From Eledone cirrhosa (Eukaryota), in the NCBI GenBank assembly GCA_964016885.1, contig OZ024744.1, forward strand, positions 9,548,001 to 9,612,000: a DNA stretch of 64,000 nt. The letters are read 5' to 3'. Under the pieces are notes generated by a model. That model was not told the DNA's origin and did not search any database. It saw nothing but the letters and a program-made list of their open reading frames with translations. Shown here piece after piece: positions 37,548 through 64,000 of the stretch. A program made the translations under genes and the position numbers. Position 1 is the stretch's first letter; the number at the start of each line of letters is the position of its first letter.

Positions 37548-38175
37548 CTAGCAGTGGTACCCGGCGTTGCACGGGATAAGGTATTTTGGAACGCGGGCCA
37601 CCAACAGACCTAATCGTGGAAAAACTGCATGCCTGGACAATATATAAAGAAAATAAATCGAATACTCTGATGGCTGGATAATCTTTAAGATTTTCCTCGA
37701 TGAAGCAGGAAAAATGCAGGTTTTCACCTAATGCGGGCCCTAGGGGATCAAGAAAATGAATTTTTTTTGTGCATAATATGCCTTGAAATTTCGGGAAAAT
37801 CGGCTAGACGTAACGCCTCAAAAAAGCCCTAAAAAGCTGAAAAAATGAAGTTTTTCACCTAATGCGGGCCCTAGGCCATAAAAAAGTTGGATTATCTTTG
37901 CTCACGGTATGGATCTTTGTTGGATTATCTTTGCTCACGGAAGAAGAGACTAACTAATACATAGTTACAATTTCAAAGACTTCGGTCTGACGTAACGCCT
38001 CAAAAAAACCCTAAAAAGCTGAAAAAACGCAATTTTTCACCTAATGCGGGCCCTAATAACACTCCCTGAAACATAAGTAATACACATGTAAAGTTTGAAA
38101 AAAATCGGGTGGGTACTTCTCGAGTTTTAGGGATTCAAACTCACAGACAGACATCCTCAGTTTTTTATATATAGA
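37548..38175 (-). mobile_element. Non-autonomous Helitron-like element, family 2 (~630 bp)
   Basis: CTAG end with hairpin CCCGGCGTTGCACGGG; TCTATATAT start; internal repeats TTTTCACCTAATGCGGGCCCTA x3; partial copies at 38960-39160 and 40575-40710. Confidence 0.7.
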
Positions 38176-38311
38176 TAACGTTACAAATGGGAGTGAAAAT
38201 ATAAACACATATGATATATACAAAGCATATAAATAAATTTACAGTAGAATAACATAAATGTGTTTTAAATATATACATAGCACTACAAATGCTTAAATAA
38301 CATTATAAATT

Positions 38312-38871
38312 GAAGGGGTGAACAACCGAGCCAACACTAATGATTTTTGAGGCAAGCCAGCACACTGGCAGTGTTACCTCAGGATATGGTGAGGCTGAGG
38401 TGCTGGAACACCCAAGCGCCCTCACAAGATTCGCCAGTTACCTCTATTAGGCGAGGCTGAGGTGCTGGAACAACCAAGCGCCCTCGCAAGATTCGCCAGT
38501 TACCTCTATTTGGCGAGGCTGAGGTGCTGGAACACCCAAGCGCCCTCGCAAGATTCGCCAGTTACCTCTATTAGGCGAGGCTGAGGTGCTGGAACAACCA
38601 AGCGCCCTCGCAAGATTCGCCAGTTACCTTTATTAGGTGAGGCTGAGGTGCTGGAACAACCAAGCGCCCTCGCGAGATTCGCCAGTTACCTTTATTAGGT
38701 GAGGCTGAGGTGCTGGAACAACCAAGCGCCCTTGCAAGATTCGCCTCTATTAAGCAAGCCGCCAGTGAAGAGAGGAACCTCGCAGTCAGCGGCCCAACTC
38801 CCCACAGGCTGAAAAATGTACCCCTCGCTGCTGTCTTTTGCTCTGGTGTTGGCTCAGTTGTTCACCCCTTC
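38312..38871. mobile_element. Unclassified element with 26-bp inverted repeats enclosing six 62-bp tandem units
   Basis: GAAGGGGTGAACAACCGAGCCAACAC at 38312-38337 and its reverse complement (1 mismatch) at 38846-38871; units start at 38391, 38453, 38515, 38577, 38639, 38701. Confidence 0.75.
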
Positions 38872-46992: not shown

Positions 46993-47112
46993 CATTCGCA
47001 TTAATTTTCAAATATTATGTTTATCTGTTCATATTATTTTGAGTTAATCATGCTCAAGAGGGTTATCAATTTTATTTGTTTGTAATTTTCTTAATTTTCT
47101 ATGTGCAGGCTT

Positions 47113-47890
47113 TTACCTAGTTTCTCAGTTCATCCATACACGTCACATGTCTATACCAACACTGTCTCCTCTCCTACACACTACATCTGATTCCTCTTAT
47201 ACCTAGTTTCTCTTCCAGTTCATCCATACACATCACATGTCTATACCAACACAGTCTCCTCTCCTACACACTACATCTGATTCCTCTTATACCTAGTTTC
47301 TCTCTCCATCCATACACATCACATGTCTATACCAACACAGTCTCCTCTCTTACACACTACACCTGATTCCTCTTATACCTAGTTTCTCTCTCCATCCATA
47401 CACATCACATGTCTATACCAACACAGTCTCCTCTCCTACACACTACATCTGATTCCTCTTATACCTAGTTTCTCTCTCAGTCCATCCAGACACATCACAT
47501 ATCTATACCAACACAGTCTCCTCTCCTATACACTACATCTGATTCCTCTTATACCTAGTTTCTCTCTCCATCCATACACATCACATGGCTATACCAATAC
47601 AGTCTCCTCTCCTACACACTACATCTGATTCCTCTTATACCTAGTTTCTCTCTCCATCCATACACATCACATGTCTATACCAACACAGTCTCCTCTCCTA
47701 CACACTACATCTGATTCCTCTTATACCTAGTTTCTCTTCCAGTCCATCCATACACATCACATGTCTATACCAACACAGTCTCCTCTCCTACACACTACAT
47801 CTGATTCCTCTTATACATAGTTTCTCTCTTAATTCGTTTATGCTTTGTCGTTCTTGTATATTACTATTACACATCCTTTTGAGCATCCAT
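47113..47890 (-). repeat. 86/90-bp minisatellite made from RTE coding sequence, 8 units, running into unamplified RTE
   Basis: ACCTAGTTTC at 47115, 47201, 47291, 47377, 47463, 47553, 47639, 47725 and (variant) 47815; minus strand reads EKLGIRGIRCSV.ERRL.WY.HVM. Confidence 0.93.
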
Positions 47891-51717: not shown

Positions 51718-51890
51718 CGCATCAAGTCGAACCAGATCCACAAATTACTCCGCGAAGAGAAGGACAGTTCGGCAGAGCAGGTAGCTACCCTCCATGGTCA
51801 GGTGCAGGCTCAGAATCAGGTGGTACGCAAACTTGAAGAGAAGGAGCGCATCCTGCAGAATAACCTCGCTACTGTTGAGAAAGAACTCAG
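51718..51890 (+). CDS. BRE1: Bre1 exon H, 173 nt, phase 0-2
   Basis: gtgcag|CGC...CTCAG|gtgtgt; [15 protein letters not shown]...[13 protein letters not shown]. Confidence 0.96.
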
Positions 51891-52960: not shown

Positions 52961-53017
52961 ATGCGAACATAACTTTACAGAATATGATGATCGTTTCTTT
53001 CCTTTTCTGCTTATCAG

Positions 53018-53195
53018 CCTCCGTCAACAAGCTATGGAAATGCACAAACGAAAGGCAGTTGAGAGTGCCCAGGCAGCAGCTGATCTGAAGTTACGCCTTG
53101 ATAAATACCAGTCACAATTGAAAGAGGCCCAGGTTGCTGTTGCTGAAAAGACTGCTCACCTAGAAAAGGAGTCATTCAAGTTTAAAAGGATGCAG
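53018..53195 (+). CDS. BRE1: Bre1 exon I, 178 nt, phase 2-0
   Basis: tatcag|C CTC...CAG|gtagg; LRQQAMEMHKRKAVESAQAAADLK...EKESFKFKRMQ. Confidence 0.95.
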
Positions 53196-53239
53196 GTAGG
53201 CCTTATTTCTTCAACTGCTCACATGTCTTGAAGCTGATT

Positions 53240-55426
53240 CAGATCCACAAACATATAATATATACAAAGCAGGTAATACACACATCTAGGACCACATACA
53301 ACACACAGGCAGGTAATACATACATCTAGGACCACATACAACACATAACCAGGTAATACATACATCTAGGACTACATACAACACATAACCAGGTAATACA
53401 TACATCTAGGACCACATACAACACACAAGCAGGTAATACATACATCTAGGACCACATACAACACACAAGCAGGTAATACATACATCTAGGACTACATACA
53501 ACACATAACCAGGTAATACATACATCTAGGACCACATACAACACACAAGCAGGTAATACATACATCTAGGACCACATACAACACATAACCAGGTAATACA
53601 TACATCTAGGACCACATACAACACATAACCAGGTAATACATACATCCAGGACTACATACAACACACAATCAGGTAATACATACATCCAGGACTACATACA
53701 ACACACAAGCAGGTTATACACACATCTAGGACCACATACAATACACAAGCAGGTAATACATACATCTAGGACTACATACAACACACAAGCAGGTAATACA
53801 TACATCTAGGACCACATACAACACATAACCAGGTAATACATACATCTAGGACTACATACAACACATAACCAGGTAATACATACATCTAGGACTACATACA
53901 ACACATAACCAGGTAATACATACATCTAGGACCACATACAACACACAAGCAGGTAATACATACATCTAGGACCACATACAACACACAGGCAGGTAATACA
54001 CACATCTAGGACCACATACAATACACAAGCAGGTAATACATACATCTAGGACTACATACAACACACAAGCAGGTAATACATACATCTAGGACCACATACA
54101 ACACATAACCAGGTAATACATACAACACATAACCAGGTAATACATACATCTAGGGCCACATACAACACATAACCAGGTAATACATACATCTAGAACTACA
54201 TACAACACACAAGCAGGTAATACATACATATAGGGCCACATACAACACACAAGCAGGTAATACATACATCTAGGACCACATACAACACATAACCAGGTAA
54301 TACATACATCTAGGACTACATACAACACATAACCAGGTAATACACACATCTAGGACCACATACAACACACAGGCAGGTAATACATACATCCAGGACTACA
54401 TACAACACACAGGCAGGTAATACATACATCTAGGACTACATACAACACATAACCAGGTAATACATACATCTAGAACCACATACAACACACAGGCAGGTAA
54501 TACATACATCCAGGACTACATACAACACACAGGCAGGTAATACATACATCTAGGACTACATACAACACATAACCAGGTAATACATACATCTAGGACTACA
54601 TACAACACATAACCAGGTAATACATACATCTAGGACCACATACAACACATAACCAGGTAATACATACATCTAGAACCACATACAACACACAGGCAGGTAA
54701 TACATACATCCAGGACTACATACAATACACAGGCAGGTAATACATACATCTAGGACTACATACAACACACAGGCAGGTAATACATAGATCTCGGACCACA
54801 TACAACACACAAGCAGGTAATACACACATCTAGGACCACATACAACACACAAGCAGGTAATACATACATCTAGGGCCACATACAACACACAGGCAGGAAA
54901 TACACACATCTAGGACCAGATAAAACACACAAGCAGGTAATACATACATCTAGGACCACATACAACACACAGGCAGGAAATACACACATCTAGGACCAGA
55001 TAAAACACACAGGCAGGTAATAACACATCTAGGACCACATACAACACACAGGCAGGTAATACATACATCTAGGACCACATACAACACACAGGCAGGTAAT
55101 ACATACATCTAGGACCACATACAACACACAGGCAGGTAATACATACATCTAGGACCACATACAACACATACAACACACAGGCAGGTAATACATACATCTA
55201 GGACTACATACAACACACAGGCAGGTAATACATACATCTAGGACCACATACAACACATACAACACACAGGCAGGTAATACATACATCTAGGACTACATAC
55301 AACACACAAGCAGGTAATACATACATCTAGGACTACATACAACACACAAGCAGGTAATACATACATCTAGGACGATATACAACACACAGGCAGGTAATAC
55401 ATACATCTTTGACCACATACAACACA
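53240..55426. repeat. 40-bp minisatellite, ~54 copies
   Basis: Unit AGGTAATACATACATCTAGGACYACATACAACACAYARSC. Confidence 0.97.
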
Positions 55427-55537
55427 CCAGGTTGCTGTTGCTGAAAAGACTGCTCACCTAGAAAAGGAGTCATTCAAGTTTAAAAGGATGCAGGTAGGCC
55501 TTATTTCATCAACTGCTCACACGTCTTGAAGCTGATT
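55427..55537 (+). other. 111-bp duplicate of the 3' end of Bre1 exon I with its donor; candidate 63-nt exon at 55431-55493
   Basis: Matches 53129-53239 with two mismatches, both in the intronic part. Confidence 0.9.
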
Positions 55538-55659
55538 GGGGAAGAGGTATTGGTTTCTGATTTAGGCACAAAACCAGCAATTTGGGGAGATGGGGTAAGT
55601 TGATTAACCCTTTAGTGTTCAAAACGGCCAGAGCCGGCCAAAATTATTTCCCCTTTCAT

Positions 55660-58600
55660 CATTTCATCATCATCTTCGTTTAACGTCCATCTTCCACGCT
55701 AGCATGGGTTAGACGGGAGTTGTCCCACTTGAGGCAAGGTTGGTCGTCTCGCTCGTATAGGACTATCTGACAGGTTTTCTACGGCTGGATGCCCTTCCTA
55801 ACACCAACCACGTTTACAGTGTGGACTGGGAACTTATTACTGTGTTACCTACACGGCCACATTACAGCGTGGACTGTGTGTTTTTTGTCATGACACCTAC
55901 ACGATCTCGATCTCATTATCTCATTTATTTGGGCTGGATGTTGTAGTACCAACTTTACAGAGAGAGGGTGGTGTTGGTGGGAGGATAGGGTAGGGGTAGT
56001 GGATTGGGGTGTATATTTGGTTAATTAGGTGCCTACTGACTGTATGTTTCGCTTTGGACATAGGCAAGGCGGGTCTTCTGTATTACTGTGTAGCGCCAAA
56101 ACTCCCGGTCCAGTGACATTGTCTTAGAGAGGTGCAAGTGTGGAAGGTCGGAATTTATCAAGTCGTCCCAGGTTTTTCTGGGTCTACCTACTCCGTAACT
56201 ACCATCAATTTTGATCTCCCTGCATTTTTTTATACAGCTGTCGTCTTTCATGCGCATCACGTGACCATACCAACGTAGTCTTCTCTCGAGTAAACAGCAT
56301 CTGATCCCTCTTATTCCTAATTTCTCACTTAGTTAATTTTTGCTTTGCCATTCACGTATATTACTATTACACATCCAGCGGAGCATGCAAGCTTCGTTCC
56401 TTTCCAGTCTACGCAGGTCCTCTGCACACAATGCCCAAGTTTCACTGCCATTTAGCATTGCTGTTCATATACAGGCATCATACAATCTGCCTTTCATTTT
56501 TAGAGAGAAACCTTTTGTGGCCAACAGCGGCTTCAGCTCTCTCAACTTTTTCCATCCCGTTCTGACTCTGGCTATTGTATTTCAGAACACCCTCCACCAC
56601 TGCTGATTTTGTCACCCAGGTAACGGAAAGTGTCTCCTATTTCTGAGGAACCAAAAACGTGAGGTGTTCAGGATTGCTAGGCAATGTGTCAGGGAAAACC
56701 GTGATATTGTCGGGGAGAAGTGTGTACTTAACGATGACGGCGTACTTGCCATCACCGACGCCGATAAGAAGGTAGCTTGGAAGTGTCACTATGAAAGGCT
56801 ACTAAATGAGGAGAATAAATGGGAGAAAGACAGTCTCCCCCACATCAACCCAATAGAGGGACCAGCAGTGTTAGTCGAGGGTAGTATAATAAGTAAGGCA
56901 ATCAAAGATATGAAGACAGGCAAGGCGGCTGGGCCTTCGGAAATAGTTGCCGAGATGCTGAAGGCATCTGGTATGGTGGGACACACCATGGTCACCCGGA
57001 TACTCAACCAAGTCATACAGAATGGGGTTGTTCCGAAGGACTGGCGTAGCAGCATCATCGTTAACTGTTATAAGGGTAAAGGAGATGCCCTAGATAGGAG
57101 TAACTATAGAGGCATTAAATTAATCGACCAGGTCATGAAGGTCACGGAAAAAGTAATAGCGCAACTAATCAGAGAGCGAATTGATCTAGATGAAATGCAG
57201 TTCGGGTTTGTGTCAGGAAAAAGTACCACAGACGCTCTTTTCATTGTACGACAACTACAGGAGAAGTACCTAGCTAAAAGTAAACCCCTATACTTAGCTT
57301 TTGTCGACTTGGAGAAGGCCTTCGACAGAGTCCCCCGTTCCATTATCGGGTGGGCTCTTAGAAAACTAGGTGTTGATGAATGGCTTGTGAGAGCTATACA
57401 AGCCATGTATAAAGAAACAGTCAGCAAGGTTAGAATTAACAACGAATATAGTGAAGAGTTTAGTGTAAAAGTTGGTGTTCATCAGGGCTCTGTTCTTAGC
57501 CCCCTACTATTTATTATCGCCCTCCAGGCTATAACAGTGGAGTTCAAGACCGGCTGCCTATGGGAACTCCTATACGCAGATGATCTAACGCTCATAGCTG
57601 AATCAATGGCCGAGCTAGAGAAGAAATTCCAAACATGGAAGCACGGCCTACTATTTATTATCGCCCTCCAGGCTATAACAGTGGAGTTCAAGACCGGCTG
57701 CCCATGGGAACTCCTATACGCAGATGATCTAACGCTCATAGCTGAATCAATGGCCGAGCTAGAGAAGAAATTCCAAACATGGAAGCACGGCCTAGAATCA
57801 AAAGGCCTTAAAATTAACCTGGCTAAGACTAAAGTTCTAGTTTGTAAGAAAGAAAATAAGGCGGCGGTCCCCTCCGGGAAGTGGCCATGCGCAGAGTGTA
57901 GGAAAGGCGTAGGTAGAAATTCCATTTTGTGTCCCAAATGCAAAGTTTGGGTGCATAAAAGATGTAGTGGGATCACAGGTAAGTTAACTAAGAACATAGA
58001 TTTTACATGTGGCCGGTGTTCTGGGGCAATAAGTAGCAGCAAGTGCCCACAAAATACTAGCTCTTTCAACTGCGCAGAGGGTTCTATAGAAATAGTGGAC
58101 AGCTTCCGTTACCTGGGTGACAAAATCAGCAGTGGGGGAGCGTGCTCTGAAAGTACAGTAGCTAGAGTCAGAACTGGGTGGAAAAAGTTCAGAGAGCTTA
58201 TACCACTATTAGCCGCTAAAGGGTTCTCCCTAAAAATGAAAGGCAGGTTGTACGATGCCTGCATACGAACAGCAATGTTGCATGGCAGTGAGACCTGGGC
58301 ATTGTGTGCAGAGGATATACGCAGACTAGAGAGAAATGAAGCTTGCATGCTCCGCTGGATGTGTAATAGTAATATACGTGAACAACAAAGCATAAACGAA
58401 CTAAGGAAAAAATTAGAAATAAGAGGGATCAGATGTTGTTTACTAGAGAGAAGGCTACGTTGGTATGGTCACGTGATGCGCATGAAGGACGATAGCTGTA
58501 TAACAAAGTGCAGGGCAATAAAGATAGACGGTAGCCACGGAATAGGCAGACCCAGAAAAACCTGGGACGAGCTGATAAACTCCGACCTCACACACTTACA

Positions 58601-59213
58601 CCTCTCCAAGACAATGTCACTGGACCGAGACCTTTGGCGGTACTCAGTAATAGAGAAGACCCGCCTTACCTAAATACAAAGTAAAACCTACTACAGTCAG
58701 TAGGCATCTCTAACAAAATACACCCCCGTCCCCCCACCCCATCCACACCGCCCCCTGCTATGTAAAGTTATGTTGGTGCCACACAATCCAGGCCGAAACA
58801 AATGAGATCGTGTAGGTGTCACGACAAAAAAACACACAGTCCACGCTGTAATGTGGCCATGTAGGCAACATGGTAAAAACCTCCCAGCCCCACACTGTAA
58901 ATGTGGTTGGTGTTAGGAAGGGCATCCAACTGTAGAAAACCTGCCAGACAGTCCTATGCGAGCAAGACAATCACTCTTGCCTCAAGTGGGAAAACCCCCG
59001 TCCAAACCCATGCAAGCGTGGAACACGGACGTTAAACGTTGATGATGATGATTTCTATAGAATCATCTTGGCAATAGAACGAGCTAGTATCTTGTGGGCA
59101 CTTGCTACTTATTGCACCTGAGCATCGGCTACATATAAAGTCTACATTCTTAGATAGTTTACCTGTGATCCCACTACATCTTTTATGTACCCATAATTTG
59201 CATTTGGGACATA
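55660..59213 (-). mobile_element. Older 5'-truncated RTE LINE in two pieces (55660-56644 and 59057-59213)
   Basis: (CAT)n tail at the left; the two pieces are colinear with 40975-42092 across the insertion. Confidence 0.9.
56645..59050 (+). mobile_element. Young 5'-truncated RTE LINE; open 669-aa RT ORF (56664-58673) with a 144-bp in-frame duplication
   Basis: TSD ATTTCT at 56639-56644 and 59051-59056; (GAT)n tail; RT motifs with YADD twice; no endonuclease domain. Confidence 0.96.
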
Positions 59214-59415: not shown

Positions 59416-60108
59416 TTTAAAATAGATGGTCTTATTTGATAGAACCAAAGCTGGTTTTGGCTGGGTTGGTAACTAAAGGGTTAAATAGGAACTCTTTAAA
59501 ATGAGTGGTTTTATTTGATAGAACCAGAGCTGGTTTTGGCTGGGTTGGTAACTAAAGGGTTTAATAGGAACTCTTTAAAATGCGAAATGGGTGGTTTTAT
59601 TTGATAGAACCAGAGCTGGTTTTAGCTGGGTTGGTAACTAAAGGGTTAAATAGGAACTCTTTAAAAAGGGTGGTCTTATTTGATAGAACCATAGCTGGGT
59701 TGGTAACTAAAGGGGTAAATAGGAACTCTTTAAAATGGGTAGTTTTATTTGATAGAAACAGAGCTGGTTTTGGCTGGGTTGGTGACTAAAGGGTTAAATA
59801 GGAACTCTTTAAAATGGGTGGCCTTATTTGATAGAACCAGAGCTGGTTTTGGCTGGGTTGGTAACTAAAGGGTTAAATAGAAACTCTTTAAAATGGGTGG
59901 TCTTGTTTGATAGATCCAGAGCTGGTTTTGGCTGGGTTGGTAACTAAATGGTTTAATAGGAACTCTTTAAAATGGGTGGTCTTATTTGATAGAACCAGAG
60001 CTGGGCTGGTAACTAAAGGGTTAAATAGGAACTCTTTAAAAAGGGAAATGGGTGGTCTTATTTGATAGAACCAGAGCTGGTTTTGGCTGGGTTGGTAACT
60101 AAAGGGTT
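59416..60108. repeat. ~79-bp tandem repeat, 9 copies, containing a piggyBac-type terminus plus TTAA and flank
   Basis: GATAGA at 59438, 59517, 59603, 59682, 59751, 59830, 59909, 59988, 60064; units carry GGTAACTAAAGGGTTAA or close variants. Confidence 0.93.
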
Positions 60109-60568: not shown

Positions 60569-63500
60569 CTAAATATAGACGGTGCTGCAAAATCTTTTGG
60601 GCCAGTGGACCCTACGACCTGAACGGGTCGTGGTCTTGTAATGTGGCGATGGTGGTGGTGTAGGGACAGGCGATGATGGTGGTTCAGGAACAGTCGTTCG
60701 CTCAACAGGCAAATACGAAGGGGTTCGTGGATCAGGAACCACAGCGTCCGTGTCAAGGTGCGCCTGCTTAAGCCTGTCTATTGTAACTGTCTCCCTGGAC
60801 CCCTTAATATCTAACGTGAAATGCTTAGCCGAGCGCGCTAAGACACGGTAAGGTCCAGTGTAAGGCTGTGTGAGCGGGGGCTTCACCGTATCATTCCTTA
60901 CAAAGGCAATATCCCTCGGGACAGCAGTCTTGACAGTTTGTTTCCTAGTGTCCATTGGCGGCAAATCCTGGAAATAGGAGCGCAAACGGGACACGTAGGA
61001 AGCGTGATCTTGGGCATCAAGATCGATAGGGGCAAGCATTTGCCTGGGCAACGTCAGAGGGGCACCGTACAGTACTTCGGCCGGTGAAAATCCAAAGTCG
61101 ACCTTCACCGTTGACCGAATCCCTAGTAGCACAATAGGGAGGTACTCGCTCCAATGCGCCGAGTCCATTGAGGCCATTAAGGAGGCCTTCAGTTGGCGGT
61201 GAAAACGCCCCACCATACCATTCGAAGCAGGATGGTATGCCGTAGTTCGAATGCGTTTAGCACCAATTAATTTTGACAGCTCGAGGAAAAGGCTCGACTC
61301 GAACTGTCGTCCACGGTCGGTAGTTATTGTGGATGGAAATCCATAACGAGAGATCCATCCAGACACAAGAGCACGTGCTGTTGTCTCCGCGGTGATGTTT
61401 TTCAAGGGGATGGCCTCAGGCCATCTCGAAAAACGGTCAATGACGGTAAGTAGATAAGAAAAACCATCGCTGACAGGCCAAGGTCCCACTATGTCAATAT
61501 GAATATGTGAAAAACGCGCATCTGGGTTAGCAAAGGTACCCAGGGGAGCCTTGACGTGTCGATGGACCTTTGATCTCTGGCAAGCGACGCAGGAACGGCA
61601 CCAAGCAGCAATTTCACGCCTCATATTTGGCCAGAAAAATCTAGCTGATATGAGCTTTGCTGTGGCAGAAGATCCTGGATGCGAGATACAATGTAATCCC
61701 AGAAACACGGTCCGACGATGATTCTCTGGAACGAAGGGCCTAGGCACGTCCAAAGAGACGTCGCAGAGAATTTGGCCAACTGCAGTCGACAGAGGCAAGT
61801 ATTTCATCTCGCAATTCGCAAACTCGGGCGATGTAACATCCAATGACTCAAGGGGAGGCTGATCCGCAGCCAAACGAGTCAGATCTATGTCAGAGGATGA
61901 CGAGATCGCTGTCACGGGTAAGCGGGACAAAGCATCGGCCGCTGTATTTAGTGAACCCGGAATGTGCTGGATATCACTCGTATATTGCGAGATGAAATCA
62001 AGGTGTTTCGTCTCTCTGGGCGAGTATTTATCAGCCTTCACTCTCAAAGCAAAAGTCAATGGTTTATGGTCAGTGAGGATAGTAAATTGTCTACCCTCTA
62101 GCACATGTGAAAAATGTTTCACGGCCAAATAGATGGCTAAAAGCTCTCTTCCAAAGGTGCTGTAGCGCGTCTCAGCAGGATTTAGCTTTTTGGAAAAAAA
62201 CTCCAGCGTTTGCTGGTAACCATTGATGTTTTGCTGTAGTACTGCACCCACAGCGATACCCGATGCATCAACACAAAGTGTTAGCTTTGCACCGGGTACC
62301 GGGTGAGTCAGTAACGAAGCATTAGCCAAAACAGTTTTGGCGTGCTGAAAATCAGCAAGTTGAGTGTCTGTCAAAGAAATATCTTTGTTCTTCCTCCGAC
62401 AATTTTTCAAAATTTCTGTCAGGGAGAAAAGCAATTTTGCACAATTTGGCACGAAACGCCTATAAAAGTTAACCAGACCTAAGAACTGGCGTAACTGACG
62501 TAGTGAGGTCGGTGGAGGCAAATCCTCTATGACCTTAACTCGCTCAGGCCGGGGTCGAATACCGTCAGCATCGATGACGTGACCCAAGAAAGTCAGTGAC
62601 TCAGCACCAAAAACACATTTGGGTGCATTAAGCTGCACGTTATACGCCTTCAATCGGCGGAAAAGAAGATTCAAATGGTGCGTATGCTGCTCTGGAGAAC
62701 AACTAGCAATGAGCAGGTCGTCAATATAGGTATAGACGAAATCGAGGCCGCGAGTAACCTCATCCATAAACCGCTGAAAAGTACTAGCGGCATTCCTTAA
62801 TCCGAACGGCATGGTCAAAAACTCGAAAGACCCAAATGGCGTAACTATAGCCGTTTTTGGAATGTCATTTTTATGGACAGGAATTTGATGGTACGCACGA
62901 ATTAAATCCAGTTTGGAGAATATCTTGCATCCCTGCAACGAAGACGCAAAGTCTTGCAGATGAGGGATAGGATAACGGTCCGGTACCGTTATCGAATTTA
63001 GGCGTCGATAATCTCCAGTAGGTCTCCAATCGCCATTCGCTTTCGCTACCATGTGTAATGGGGACGCCCACGGGCTCGTGGACGGACGAATAATCCCCAT
63101 TTGCAGCATGTGATCAAACTCTGATCGTGCTGCTTTGAGTTTGTCTGGAGGCAAGCGACGAGGACGAGAGAAAACGGGAGCACCAGTTGTAGATATGAAG
63201 TGCTCCGTGGTATGAGTTGGTTCATCAAATCGAAAATTTCCCTAAGTCAGTTGCGGGAACGAGTTCAACAACGCATGGAAAGGATCACCGGTGTTAGCAA
63301 GAAAAAATGTCGGGCTAACCGTTGGAACTCCTGCTGCCTTGCCAACAACAGTTAATCCCGTGATGCCATCAATTAAGCGTTTACCACGAAGGTCCACCGT
63401 CAATGAAAAATGGTGGAGAAAATCCGCGCCTAGAATCGGATACGGCAAGGCAGCGACAGTAAATATCCATTTAAACTCACGCCGCAGATTACGAAACTGC

Positions 63501-63736
63501 AAAGGTAACGAGATTTGTCCGAAAGTTCGAATCGGCGAACAATTTACTGCCTGCAACTCAATAGGCGTCTCAGGGGGAGTCTCCTTCATACAACACACAG
63601 GCCATACGGAACAAGCTGCACTTGTGTCAACCAGAAAAGCTCTACCTGACAGCAGGTCCTCAATGAAAAAGTGGCGGTTAGATGTTGTTTCGCAGAGCGC
63701 ACTATCCGCCGTTAGTGACTCTGGTCGTCTTTTCCC
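60569..63736 (-). pseudogene. pol: Gypsy pol (PR-RT-RNaseH-IN) with one in-frame TAG at 63242-63244
   Basis: FLVDTSA; [24 protein letters not shown]; VDASG, ELLA, TDH, ADALSR; HHCC finger, HIDIVGP, TDRG, GPY. The PR and RT ORFs share one frame and are open on both sides of the TAG. Confidence 0.92.
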
Positions 63737-64000
63737 TCGTAAGCACAAGGAGGCCTACAACGGGCGGCTTTTTTACCATATTTTTCATGGTAATAACAAT
63801 ATGGTGTTCCTGGTGTGTTGGAAGGGCTACGGTGGCGAGAAGTTGAATAACGTCGTGAGCGGCTCCTCTGCCGTCCAAAGGACGTGAATTCCTTGCACAA
63901 CTCCGCCATTTGACGAGTCATGGCTTCCATAGCGGTGATTAATATGTCATCAGACGCTGATGAGCGTGATTTAGGAAGAGAAGAGGAAGCAACGTACTGT
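63712..64000 (-). CDS. gag: Gypsy gag C-terminus (partial)
   Basis: RS-rich tract RQRSRSRR followed by CYYHEKYGKKAARCRPPC (CHCC-type knuckle). Confidence 0.85.
   Translation of the reverse strand, partial: QYVASSSLPKSRSSASDDILITAMEAMTRQMAELCKEFTSFGRQRSRSRRYSTSRHRSPSNTPGTPYCYYHEKYGKKAARCRPPCAYEGKDDQSH

What the first reader, a model, noticed from the sequence alone, without database searches (positions are those of the whole stretch)
53129..55537. Exon-end duplication around a 40-bp array: in-frame 21-aa cassette exon or an intron being born
Seen: 53129-53239 and 55427-55537 are 111-bp direct repeats that exactly bracket the array. The copy begins at CCAG|GTTGCT, so 55431-55493 is 63 nt with AG before and the GTAGG donor after, phase 0-0, encoding VAVAEKTAHLEKESFKFKRMQ. 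The exonic part is identical; both mismatches are in the 44 intronic nt (too few to be significant). Known: duplication of an AG|GT proto-splice site is a proposed route to intron gain, and this part of Bre1 is coiled coil before the RING. Inference, three outcomes: the copy is ignored; it is included, adding 21 aa (three heptads) and keeping register; or 53132 splices to 55431, making a new 2298-nt intron with unchanged protein. Caveat: the new acceptor lacks a good pyrimidine tract and GTTGCT is a weak donor.
Basis: partly seen in the sequence, partly recalled or inferred. Interest (0 to 1): 0.75.

Follow-up and report, generated by a model that had tools for sequence, protein, structure and literature searches.

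The report
Retrotransposon scar copying an exon end
A piece of a jumping gene sits in an intron of an octopus Bre1 gene between two copies of the same 111 bases, likely a long insertion scar; the one spliced message seen has the normal protein-coding sequence, so the extra exon-like copy is likely ignored and the feature is ordinary.

Summary
The 111-bp repeat is in the assembly as described and recurs in a second Bre1 copy on another scaffold, with 45 instead of 54 array units. Read-level proof of copy 2's junctions was not obtained. One of 27 other family copies has a unique ~110-bp repeat abutting both of its ends, and RLE LINEs with 126-bp or longer target duplications are published (PMC9977147). 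So the repeat is likely a long target-site duplication; break repair is the rival. One spliced 3,214-nt contig joins the exon straight to the next exon, and no inclusion contig was laid. The new acceptor scores below 17 of 17 real acceptors; the proposed new donor is weaker than the native donor and 51 array decoys. Intron gain is not excluded, because the contig cannot tell the copies apart; SNP 53165 in the second copy can. Three look-ups in earlier scan notes showed no matching finding.

The parts
51718..51890 (+). Bre1 exon 15 of 18 (upstream exon)
   Evidence: tblastn and frame rebuild; its 3' end is the loose end before the exon in the spliced contig
53018..53195 (+). Bre1 exon 16 of 18, about aa 852-911; native donor at 53196; next exon lies 2.4 kb beyond the window end (window-relative 66418-66519)
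   Evidence: spliced contig X3 covers it with 0 differences and continues into the next exon
53129..53239 (+). Copy 1 of the 111-bp repeat: last 67 nt of the exon, donor and 44 nt of intron; the original target
   Evidence: single copy at the array-free C15 paralog fragment
53240..53266 (-). Leader: 3'-UTR piece of an RLE-type LINE, antisense to Bre1, lacking the element's last 50-60 nt
   Evidence: same leader at 13 other places besides the two Bre1 copies; match starts at position 63 of a 122-nt reference 3' tail
53267..55426 (-). 54 units of the 40-bp LINE 3'-UTR motif (45 in the second gene copy); on the + strand it carries 51 donor-like sites
   Evidence: 7202 exact pattern matches genome-wide, 0 for the reversed control
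55427..55537 (+). Copy 2 of the 111-bp repeat; starts at a 5-6 nt microhomology with the array unit
55431..55493 (+). 63-nt in-frame pseudo-exon with intact donor and a poor acceptor; likely not spliced in
55538..55547 (+). Third junction: 10 G-rich bases where the C15 paralog has 14 AT-rich bases; likely a derived local templated filler
   Evidence: 0 of 20 other copies of the following repeat have G just before it; one of the 20 (L063) carries the same 10-mer about 35 nt further on

Best explanation
The 111-bp repeat brackets an antisense 3'-end fragment of an RLE-type LINE and is likely the long target-site duplication made when that fragment inserted 44 nt into a Bre1 intron; the duplicated exon end is likely a silent pseudo-exon that the spliceosome skips. 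Shown: the repeat, the LINE origin of leader and array, a single-copy array-free state at a paralog fragment, one other family copy with a ~110-bp flanking repeat, a canonical spliced contig, and weak new splice sites. Inferred: a nick at about 53240 primed reverse transcription on LINE RNA, the cDNA rejoined the target 111 bp back through a 5-6 nt microhomology, and fill-in copied the exon end (about 0.55 for this route against break repair); the few inserted units then grew in place to 45-54; splicing still runs from 53195 to the next exon, because copy 2 has a donor but no usable acceptor (about 0.88).
For: LINE origin: downstream of the array at other loci lies an ORF end with Cys/His, RH, PDG, D and E-x-x-K motifs (RLE label recalled, definition checked in PMC3636483, passages); its homologs include many 900-1100 aa proteins with PF00078; a long copy in this genome has RVT_1 at E 1.6e-10; 16,270 candidate places, 150 scored. 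The motif is single (28-37 bp) in 6 copies and up to 4 kb in others. Long flank precedent: L048 has a 110-column, 84% repeat that ends at the element's 3' end and restarts 4 nt after its 5' truncation, with only 2 matches in the genome. Literature: R9 126-bp and Dualen median 900-bp duplications (PMC9977147, passages); a 1228-bp one in 1 of 25 ZfL2-2 insertions and 5' microhomology (PMC2666801, passages). Empty state: C15 fragment. Splicing: X3 gave 1 contig, 3214 nt, depth 108, joined to both neighbouring exons, no joints. Acceptor 55431: 5 T in -25..-4 against 7-15 in 17 of 17 real acceptors, score -5.5 against -3.9 to 10.4, and 53% of 909 AGs in this intron score as well. Donor 53132: 1 of 4 consensus matches at +3..+6 against 2-4 in 17 of 17 (consensus recalled), score 5.0 against 7.0 native and 8.9 for array sites; at least 12 of 149 unused exonic GTs score higher. 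0 of 67 homologs holding the 21-aa motif have it in tandem.
Against: 26 of 27 family copies examined lack a long abutting repeat, so long duplications are not the family's rule; ends of the 8 long copies were not securely placed. The insert lacks the LINE's 3' end, and a third junction follows copy 2; both fit break repair better than clean reverse transcription. The RNA evidence is one run, its kind not on record, kept as contigs that drop rare forms, and it cannot tell copy 1 from copy 2. The splice scores come from 17 introns only; one real donor scores lower (4.3) than the candidate, and the candidate acceptor's total pyrimidine count (13) is inside the real range 11-20. The copy-2 exon has 0 differences in 67 nt between the two gene copies, though this is expected 16% of the time at the flanking rate. 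No sister-species locus was available.
Confidence: 0.75

Rival explanations
1. Same silent outcome, different origin: a double-strand break at about 53240 was repaired by template switching, which copied an array-bearing LINE copy from elsewhere, returned 111 bp upstream by microhomology and rejoined with a 10-nt local filler.
For: Both ends of the insert are truncated, no tail, microhomology at the right junction, and a filler-plus-deletion exactly at the end of copy 2. These are the listed signatures of repair-mediated duplication (PMC2671141, passages). 26 of 27 family copies lack long flanking repeats.
Against: Target duplications in that paper's repair cases are 4-21 nt. L048, with an intact 3' end, shows that the family itself can carry a ~110-bp repeat. 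Other family copies also start 19-39 nt into the 3' tail. The filler may be a later change.
Confidence: 0.35
2. Copy 2 is a minor cassette exon that adds 21 aa to a fraction of Bre1 molecules.
For: In frame, phase 0-0, intact donor; no disabling change in either gene copy; contigs hide rare isoforms.
Against: No go-back joint or extra contig in X3; worst-scoring acceptor of 18; no tandem motif in 67 homologs. The effect on the coiled coil was not modelled.
Confidence: 0.08
3. A new 2298-nt intron is spliced from 53132 to 55431, leaving the protein unchanged.
For: The repeat starts at an AGGT site, the geometry of the published route (PMC3443670, section 8 and passages); the X3 contig is compatible because both copies read A at 53165 here.
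Against: It needs the weakest sites to beat the native donor 63 nt downstream and 51 stronger array donors, and to use an acceptor no better than half of the intron's AGs. The AGGT is also simply the microhomology with the array unit, which explains its position. Copy 1 stays intact in both gene copies.
Confidence: 0.04
4. Copy 2 is an assembly artefact.
For: No read-level confirmation of its junctions is in hand.
Against: Assembled twice with different array lengths and flanking SNPs, with a copy-2-specific base shared by both and a private one in C28. Weak hint: in X1 the contig with A at 53165 has depth 17.4 against 5.0 and 6.9 for single-copy forms, as three A-bearing copies predict (the tool warns that contig depth is no copy number, and X2 and X4 do not show this clearly).
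Confidence: 0.04

Closest known systems
RLE-bearing LINEs with long target-site duplications: R9 of Adineta (126 bp) and Dualen-4b_cRei of Chlamydomonas (median 900 bp), as given in PMC9977147 (passages)
   Same: RLE-type donor; a long direct repeat of host sequence on both sides of the insert; 111 bp here and ~110 bp at L048.
   Different: Long repeats seen in only 1 of 27 other copies; the insert is non-coding and truncated at both ends; R9 is rDNA-specific and Dualen has two endonucleases.
Repair-mediated duplication (PMC2671141, passages)
   Same: Local duplication of exon sequence into an adjacent intron, microhomology, filler, deletion, second donor from another chromosome; duplicated exons there showed no constraint.
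   Different: Here the duplicate brackets the insert as a direct repeat of 111 bp, longer than the 4-21 nt duplications listed there.
Intron gain by tandem duplication or transposon insertion at AGGT (PMC3443670, section 8 and passages)
   Same: A duplicated exonic AGGT with an insert between the copies.
   Different: The duplication also keeps the old donor upstream; the new acceptor has no T-rich tract; no use of the new sites is seen.
CRE-clade non-LTR retrotransposons
   Same: Single RT plus C-terminal RLE-like ORF end; CRE elements make target duplications (PMC3636483, passage). The clade label is recalled from the ORF-end motif.
   Different: No tree was built; no site specificity was seen among the copies examined.

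Membership tests
RLE-type non-LTR retrotransposon (donor family) | Reverse transcriptase domain | tested here: met
   RVT_1 E 1.6e-10, above cut-off, in L111; E 1.3e-5, below cut-off, in L110; none in L112's piece; homologs with PF00078
RLE-type non-LTR retrotransposon (donor family) | C-terminal Cys/His motif plus PD-(D/E)xK endonuclease | tested here: met
   Motifs read by eye in translations; definition in PMC3636483; no profile hit was obtained for this domain
CRE clade | RT phylogeny groups with CRE | not tested
   No named reference set in hand; label recalled
Target-primed insertion with long target-site duplication | Direct repeat abutting both ends of the insert, single at the empty site | tested here: met
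   (empty site is a paralog fragment, not an ortholog)
Target-primed insertion with long target-site duplication | Insert ends at the element's natural 3' end or tail | tested here: not met
   Match begins at position 63 of the 122-nt tail
Target-primed insertion with long target-site duplication | Family makes such duplications elsewhere | tested here: inconclusive
   1 of 27 copies
Intron gain by AGGT duplication | Duplicated exonic AGGT flanking the new segment | tested here: met
Intron gain by AGGT duplication | Usable donor and acceptor | tested here: not met
   Acceptor below 17 of 17; donor below 16 of 17 and below native and array donors; small training set
Intron gain by AGGT duplication | Transcripts spliced at the new sites | tested here: inconclusive
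   The one contig cannot tell the copies apart
Cassette exon | Open frame, symmetric phase, AG/GT ends | tested here: met
Cassette exon | Inclusion junction in RNA | tested here: inconclusive
   Not seen in 1 of 1 spliced runs, contigs only
Cassette exon | Purifying selection on the copy | tested here: inconclusive
   0 of 67 exonic and 1 of 44 intronic differences between the two copy-2s; P about 0.16

The most novel reading that the evidence does not exclude
A LINE's long target-site duplication created a new 2.3-kb intron in Bre1: splicing runs from 53132 to 55431 and the LINE fragment is now an intron, caught while a marker SNP can still prove it.
Probability: 0.04. Interest if true: 0.75.

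Novelty: new member of a known kind. Interest (0 to 1): 0.2.

Why it matters
As it most likely stands, little: a tolerated retroelement insertion that duplicated a donor site. Two smaller points have value. An octopod RLE LINE family seeds 40-bp minisatellites from its 3' UTR and may sometimes leave ~110-bp duplications (2 cases), which would be one route to partial exon copies in these introns. And the locus carries a ready marker (53165 G in copy 1, A in copy 2 of the second gene copy) that makes the intron-gain question a one-step test in raw RNA reads. A positive result would be a rare intron gain with donor element and mechanism still visible.

Tried and rejected
Read-level check of copy 2: 0 of 3 DNA runs (one sample, contigs only) listed a contig with copy 2's own base at 55508 or across either of its junctions; depth over 55500-55535 equalled the copy-1 contig alone. 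The junctions touch repeats at 1,000-10,000-fold depth, 723 pieces and 29 loose ends were not shown, and the tool states that holes prove nothing, so this is left open. No listed holder was on record as RNA; X3 is read as RNA only because its contig is spliced. No relatives of this genome are held, so no orthologous locus was seen; sister species were checked as proteins only. First exact-seed scan of 20 array loci was noted as 0 of 20 long flanks; the later end-aware scan overturned this for L048. L097 has a 233-column repeat ending at the element's 3' end, but its partner lies 4.7 kb past the 5' end, so it was not counted; repeats at L038, L040 and L105 were dispersed-repeat or non-abutting matches (one search's output was cut). 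The array donor was mis-indexed and rescored. The idea that the array is a local invention was rejected. The idea that the window copy is a pseudogene was rejected: full frame, expressed haplotype. Whether the second gene copy is an allele or a paralog is not settled: 12 of 13 coding differences are synonymous (P 1e-7) and it breaks at satellites, which suggests a mis-scaffolded allele, but 2 of its 5 missing middle exons were searched for and found once only. Pfam gave no Bre1 hit for the 58-aa exon. No structure was predicted. Six paper searches listed no paper on this locus or on long target duplications in octopus by title or abstract start; most listed papers were not opened, and no supplements were read.

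Full report
Observation. The repeat is exactly as described: 53129-53239 and 55427-55537, offset 2298, mismatches at 53210 and 53224, with a 63-nt in-frame segment at 55431-55493. Between the copies are a 27-bp leader and 54.0 units of a 40-mer. The exon is 100% identical in protein to Octopus sinensis Bre1. The whole gene lies on C28 at 9.497-9.620 Mb, and 18 exons rebuild a frame of 1002 codons without an internal stop. The species was not determined beyond 'octopus-like'.

Other copies in the genome. A second set of Bre1 exons is split: aa 1-439 at the far end of C28 and aa 686-1003 on C18, each ending in the satellite that fills the matching intron. It differs at 13 of 2242 coding bases, 12 of them synonymous, with introns about 95-98% identical. 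It has therefore been under selection and is most simply a mis-scaffolded allele; this is inferred, and the middle exons tested were found once only. An earlier scan note calls this scaffold a sex chromosome (not tested), which would complicate the allele reading. The C18 copy carries the same duplication with 45 units and identical junctions. In it copy 1 has G at 53165 and copy 2 has A; both copy-2s share A at the 53210 position. A broken fragment on C15 (86% identical) has one copy of the 111 bp and no array. I take it as the empty state; no ortholog was available to confirm this.

What the insert is. A 30-nt pattern from the unit has 7202 exact matches in the genome and 0 for the reversed control. 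Leader and unit recur on many scaffolds. At several loci the array runs into a conserved body whose opposite strand encodes an ORF end with Cys/His, RH, PDG, D and E-x-x-K motifs. Its homologs include many 900-1100 aa proteins with a reverse transcriptase domain, and a long copy in this genome scores RVT_1 above cut-off. This is an RLE-type LINE; the CRE label is recalled and untested. The 40-mer is in its 3' UTR, single in 6 copies and expanded in others. The Bre1 insert is thus an antisense 3'-UTR fragment, cut within the array at its 5' side and lacking the last 50-60 nt at its 3' side.

How the duplication arose. The right junction has 5-6 nt shared between unit and exon, which also explains why the copy starts at an AGGT. 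Of 27 other family copies, one (L048, C20) has a 110-column repeat that ends at the element's 3' end and restarts at its 5' truncation; it has only 2 matches in the genome. The other 26 have none abutting; ends of the 8 long copies were less securely placed. Long duplications by RLE-bearing LINEs are published: 126 bp for R9 and a median of 900 bp for Dualen (PMC9977147, passages). I put target-primed insertion at about 0.55. Against it are the missing 3' end and a third junction: 10 G-rich bases after copy 2 stand where C15 has 14 AT-rich bases, and 0 of 20 other copies of the following repeat have G before it. Microhomology, filler and deletion are the signatures of repair-mediated duplication (PMC2671141, passages), which I put at about 0.35. 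The arrays of the two gene copies share only 5 of 25 and 22 distinct units, so they have kept changing in place.

What splicing does. Of four runs laid, X3 gave one spliced contig (3214 nt, depth 108) covering 53014-53196 with no differences, its loose ends being the previous and the next exon; no joint was listed. So the main message is canonical. Contigs drop rare forms, and this is one run whose kind is not on record, so minor inclusion is not excluded. The contig has this window's SNPs, where both copies read A at 53165, so it cannot test intron gain. Sequence argues against both. The new acceptor has 5 T in -25..-4 against 7-15 in 17 of 17 real acceptors and scores -5.5 against -3.9 to 10.4; 53% of 909 AGs in the intron score as well, although its total pyrimidine count is within range. 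The proposed donor scores 5.0, above one real donor (4.3) but below the other 16, the native donor (7.0) and the array's 51 donor-like sites (8.9); at least 12 of 149 unused exonic GTs score higher. These scores rest on 17 introns. None of 67 homologous proteins with the 21-aa motif has it in tandem; one Mya model has two copies 737 aa apart. Copy 2's exon shows 0 changes in 67 nt between gene copies, which is not significant (P about 0.16).

Is copy 2 real? Two assemblies of it with different flanks and a shared private base make an artefact unlikely. Depth in X1 fits three A-bearing copies (17.4 against 5.0 and 6.9), a weak hint only. Direct read support for its junctions was not obtained (see Tried and rejected).

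Comparison and verdict. It works like a LINE insertion with a long target-site duplication, but fails one defining feature (intact 3' end), so it is filed as a LINE-fragment insertion with a long flanking duplication, route unresolved. It has the geometry of intron gain at AGGT (PMC3443670, section 8) but not the splice signals, and no use of the new sites is seen. Verdict: real, explained by known processes, likely silent. New member of a known kind; interest 0.2. Intron gain stays open at about 0.04 and can be settled by phasing three SNPs in raw RNA reads.

Noticed in passing
G000:C28 about 9,519,112-9,519,262 and 9,521,002-9,521,087 (L080, L093; upstream of the window): Two partial copies of another Bre1 exon (acceptor plus the first 75-90 nt of the aa 395-438 exon, 92-97% identical) lie 14-16 kb before the real exon; not found in the fetched parts of the second gene copy. 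Partial exon copies recur in this gene.
   Followed up: partly
L048:4552-6206 (G000:C20 about 9.3555-9.3572 Mb): A 5'-truncated copy of the same LINE with a unique ~110-bp flanking repeat and a later short repeat inserted in its 3' tail.
   Followed up: yes
window 56644-59052: An RTE-like LINE (label recalled) present here and absent from the C18 copy, with an apparent 6-bp target duplication by eye and an internal 144-bp tandem duplication at 57503-57794.
   Followed up: partly
window 1-28314, 47110-47829, 59416-60108: Intron satellites differ hugely between the two gene copies: the 83-86-bp array is 0.7 kb here and at least 68.8 kb on C18; the second copy's scaffold ends inside the 30-bp satellite that fills the first 28 kb of the window.
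   Followed up: partly
L041, L046, L049-L052, L055-L057: In 9 of 20 array loci the 40-mer array sits between a different AT-rich left flank and a hAT-like transposase fragment (label recalled from a motif), suggesting a DNA transposon that captured the LINE's 3' end.
   Followed up: no
G000:C1 14.447-14.51 Mb; L053-L054; L044: The same 40-mer reaches about 9.5 kb on C6, over 7.6 kb on C22 and is spread over more than 60 kb on C1.
   Followed up: no
L003 (G000:C15 about 31.066-31.068 Mb): A broken Bre1 fragment with in-frame deletions in two exons and a third exon piece inverted downstream.
   Followed up: partly
window about 38000-38800: A decayed piece of the same RLE LINE's ORF end; the 62-bp tandem repeat at 38391-38745 derives from it.
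   Followed up: no
window about 60700-63900: What looks by eye like an LTR-retrotransposon pol region on the minus strand inside the same intron; not tested.
   Followed up: no
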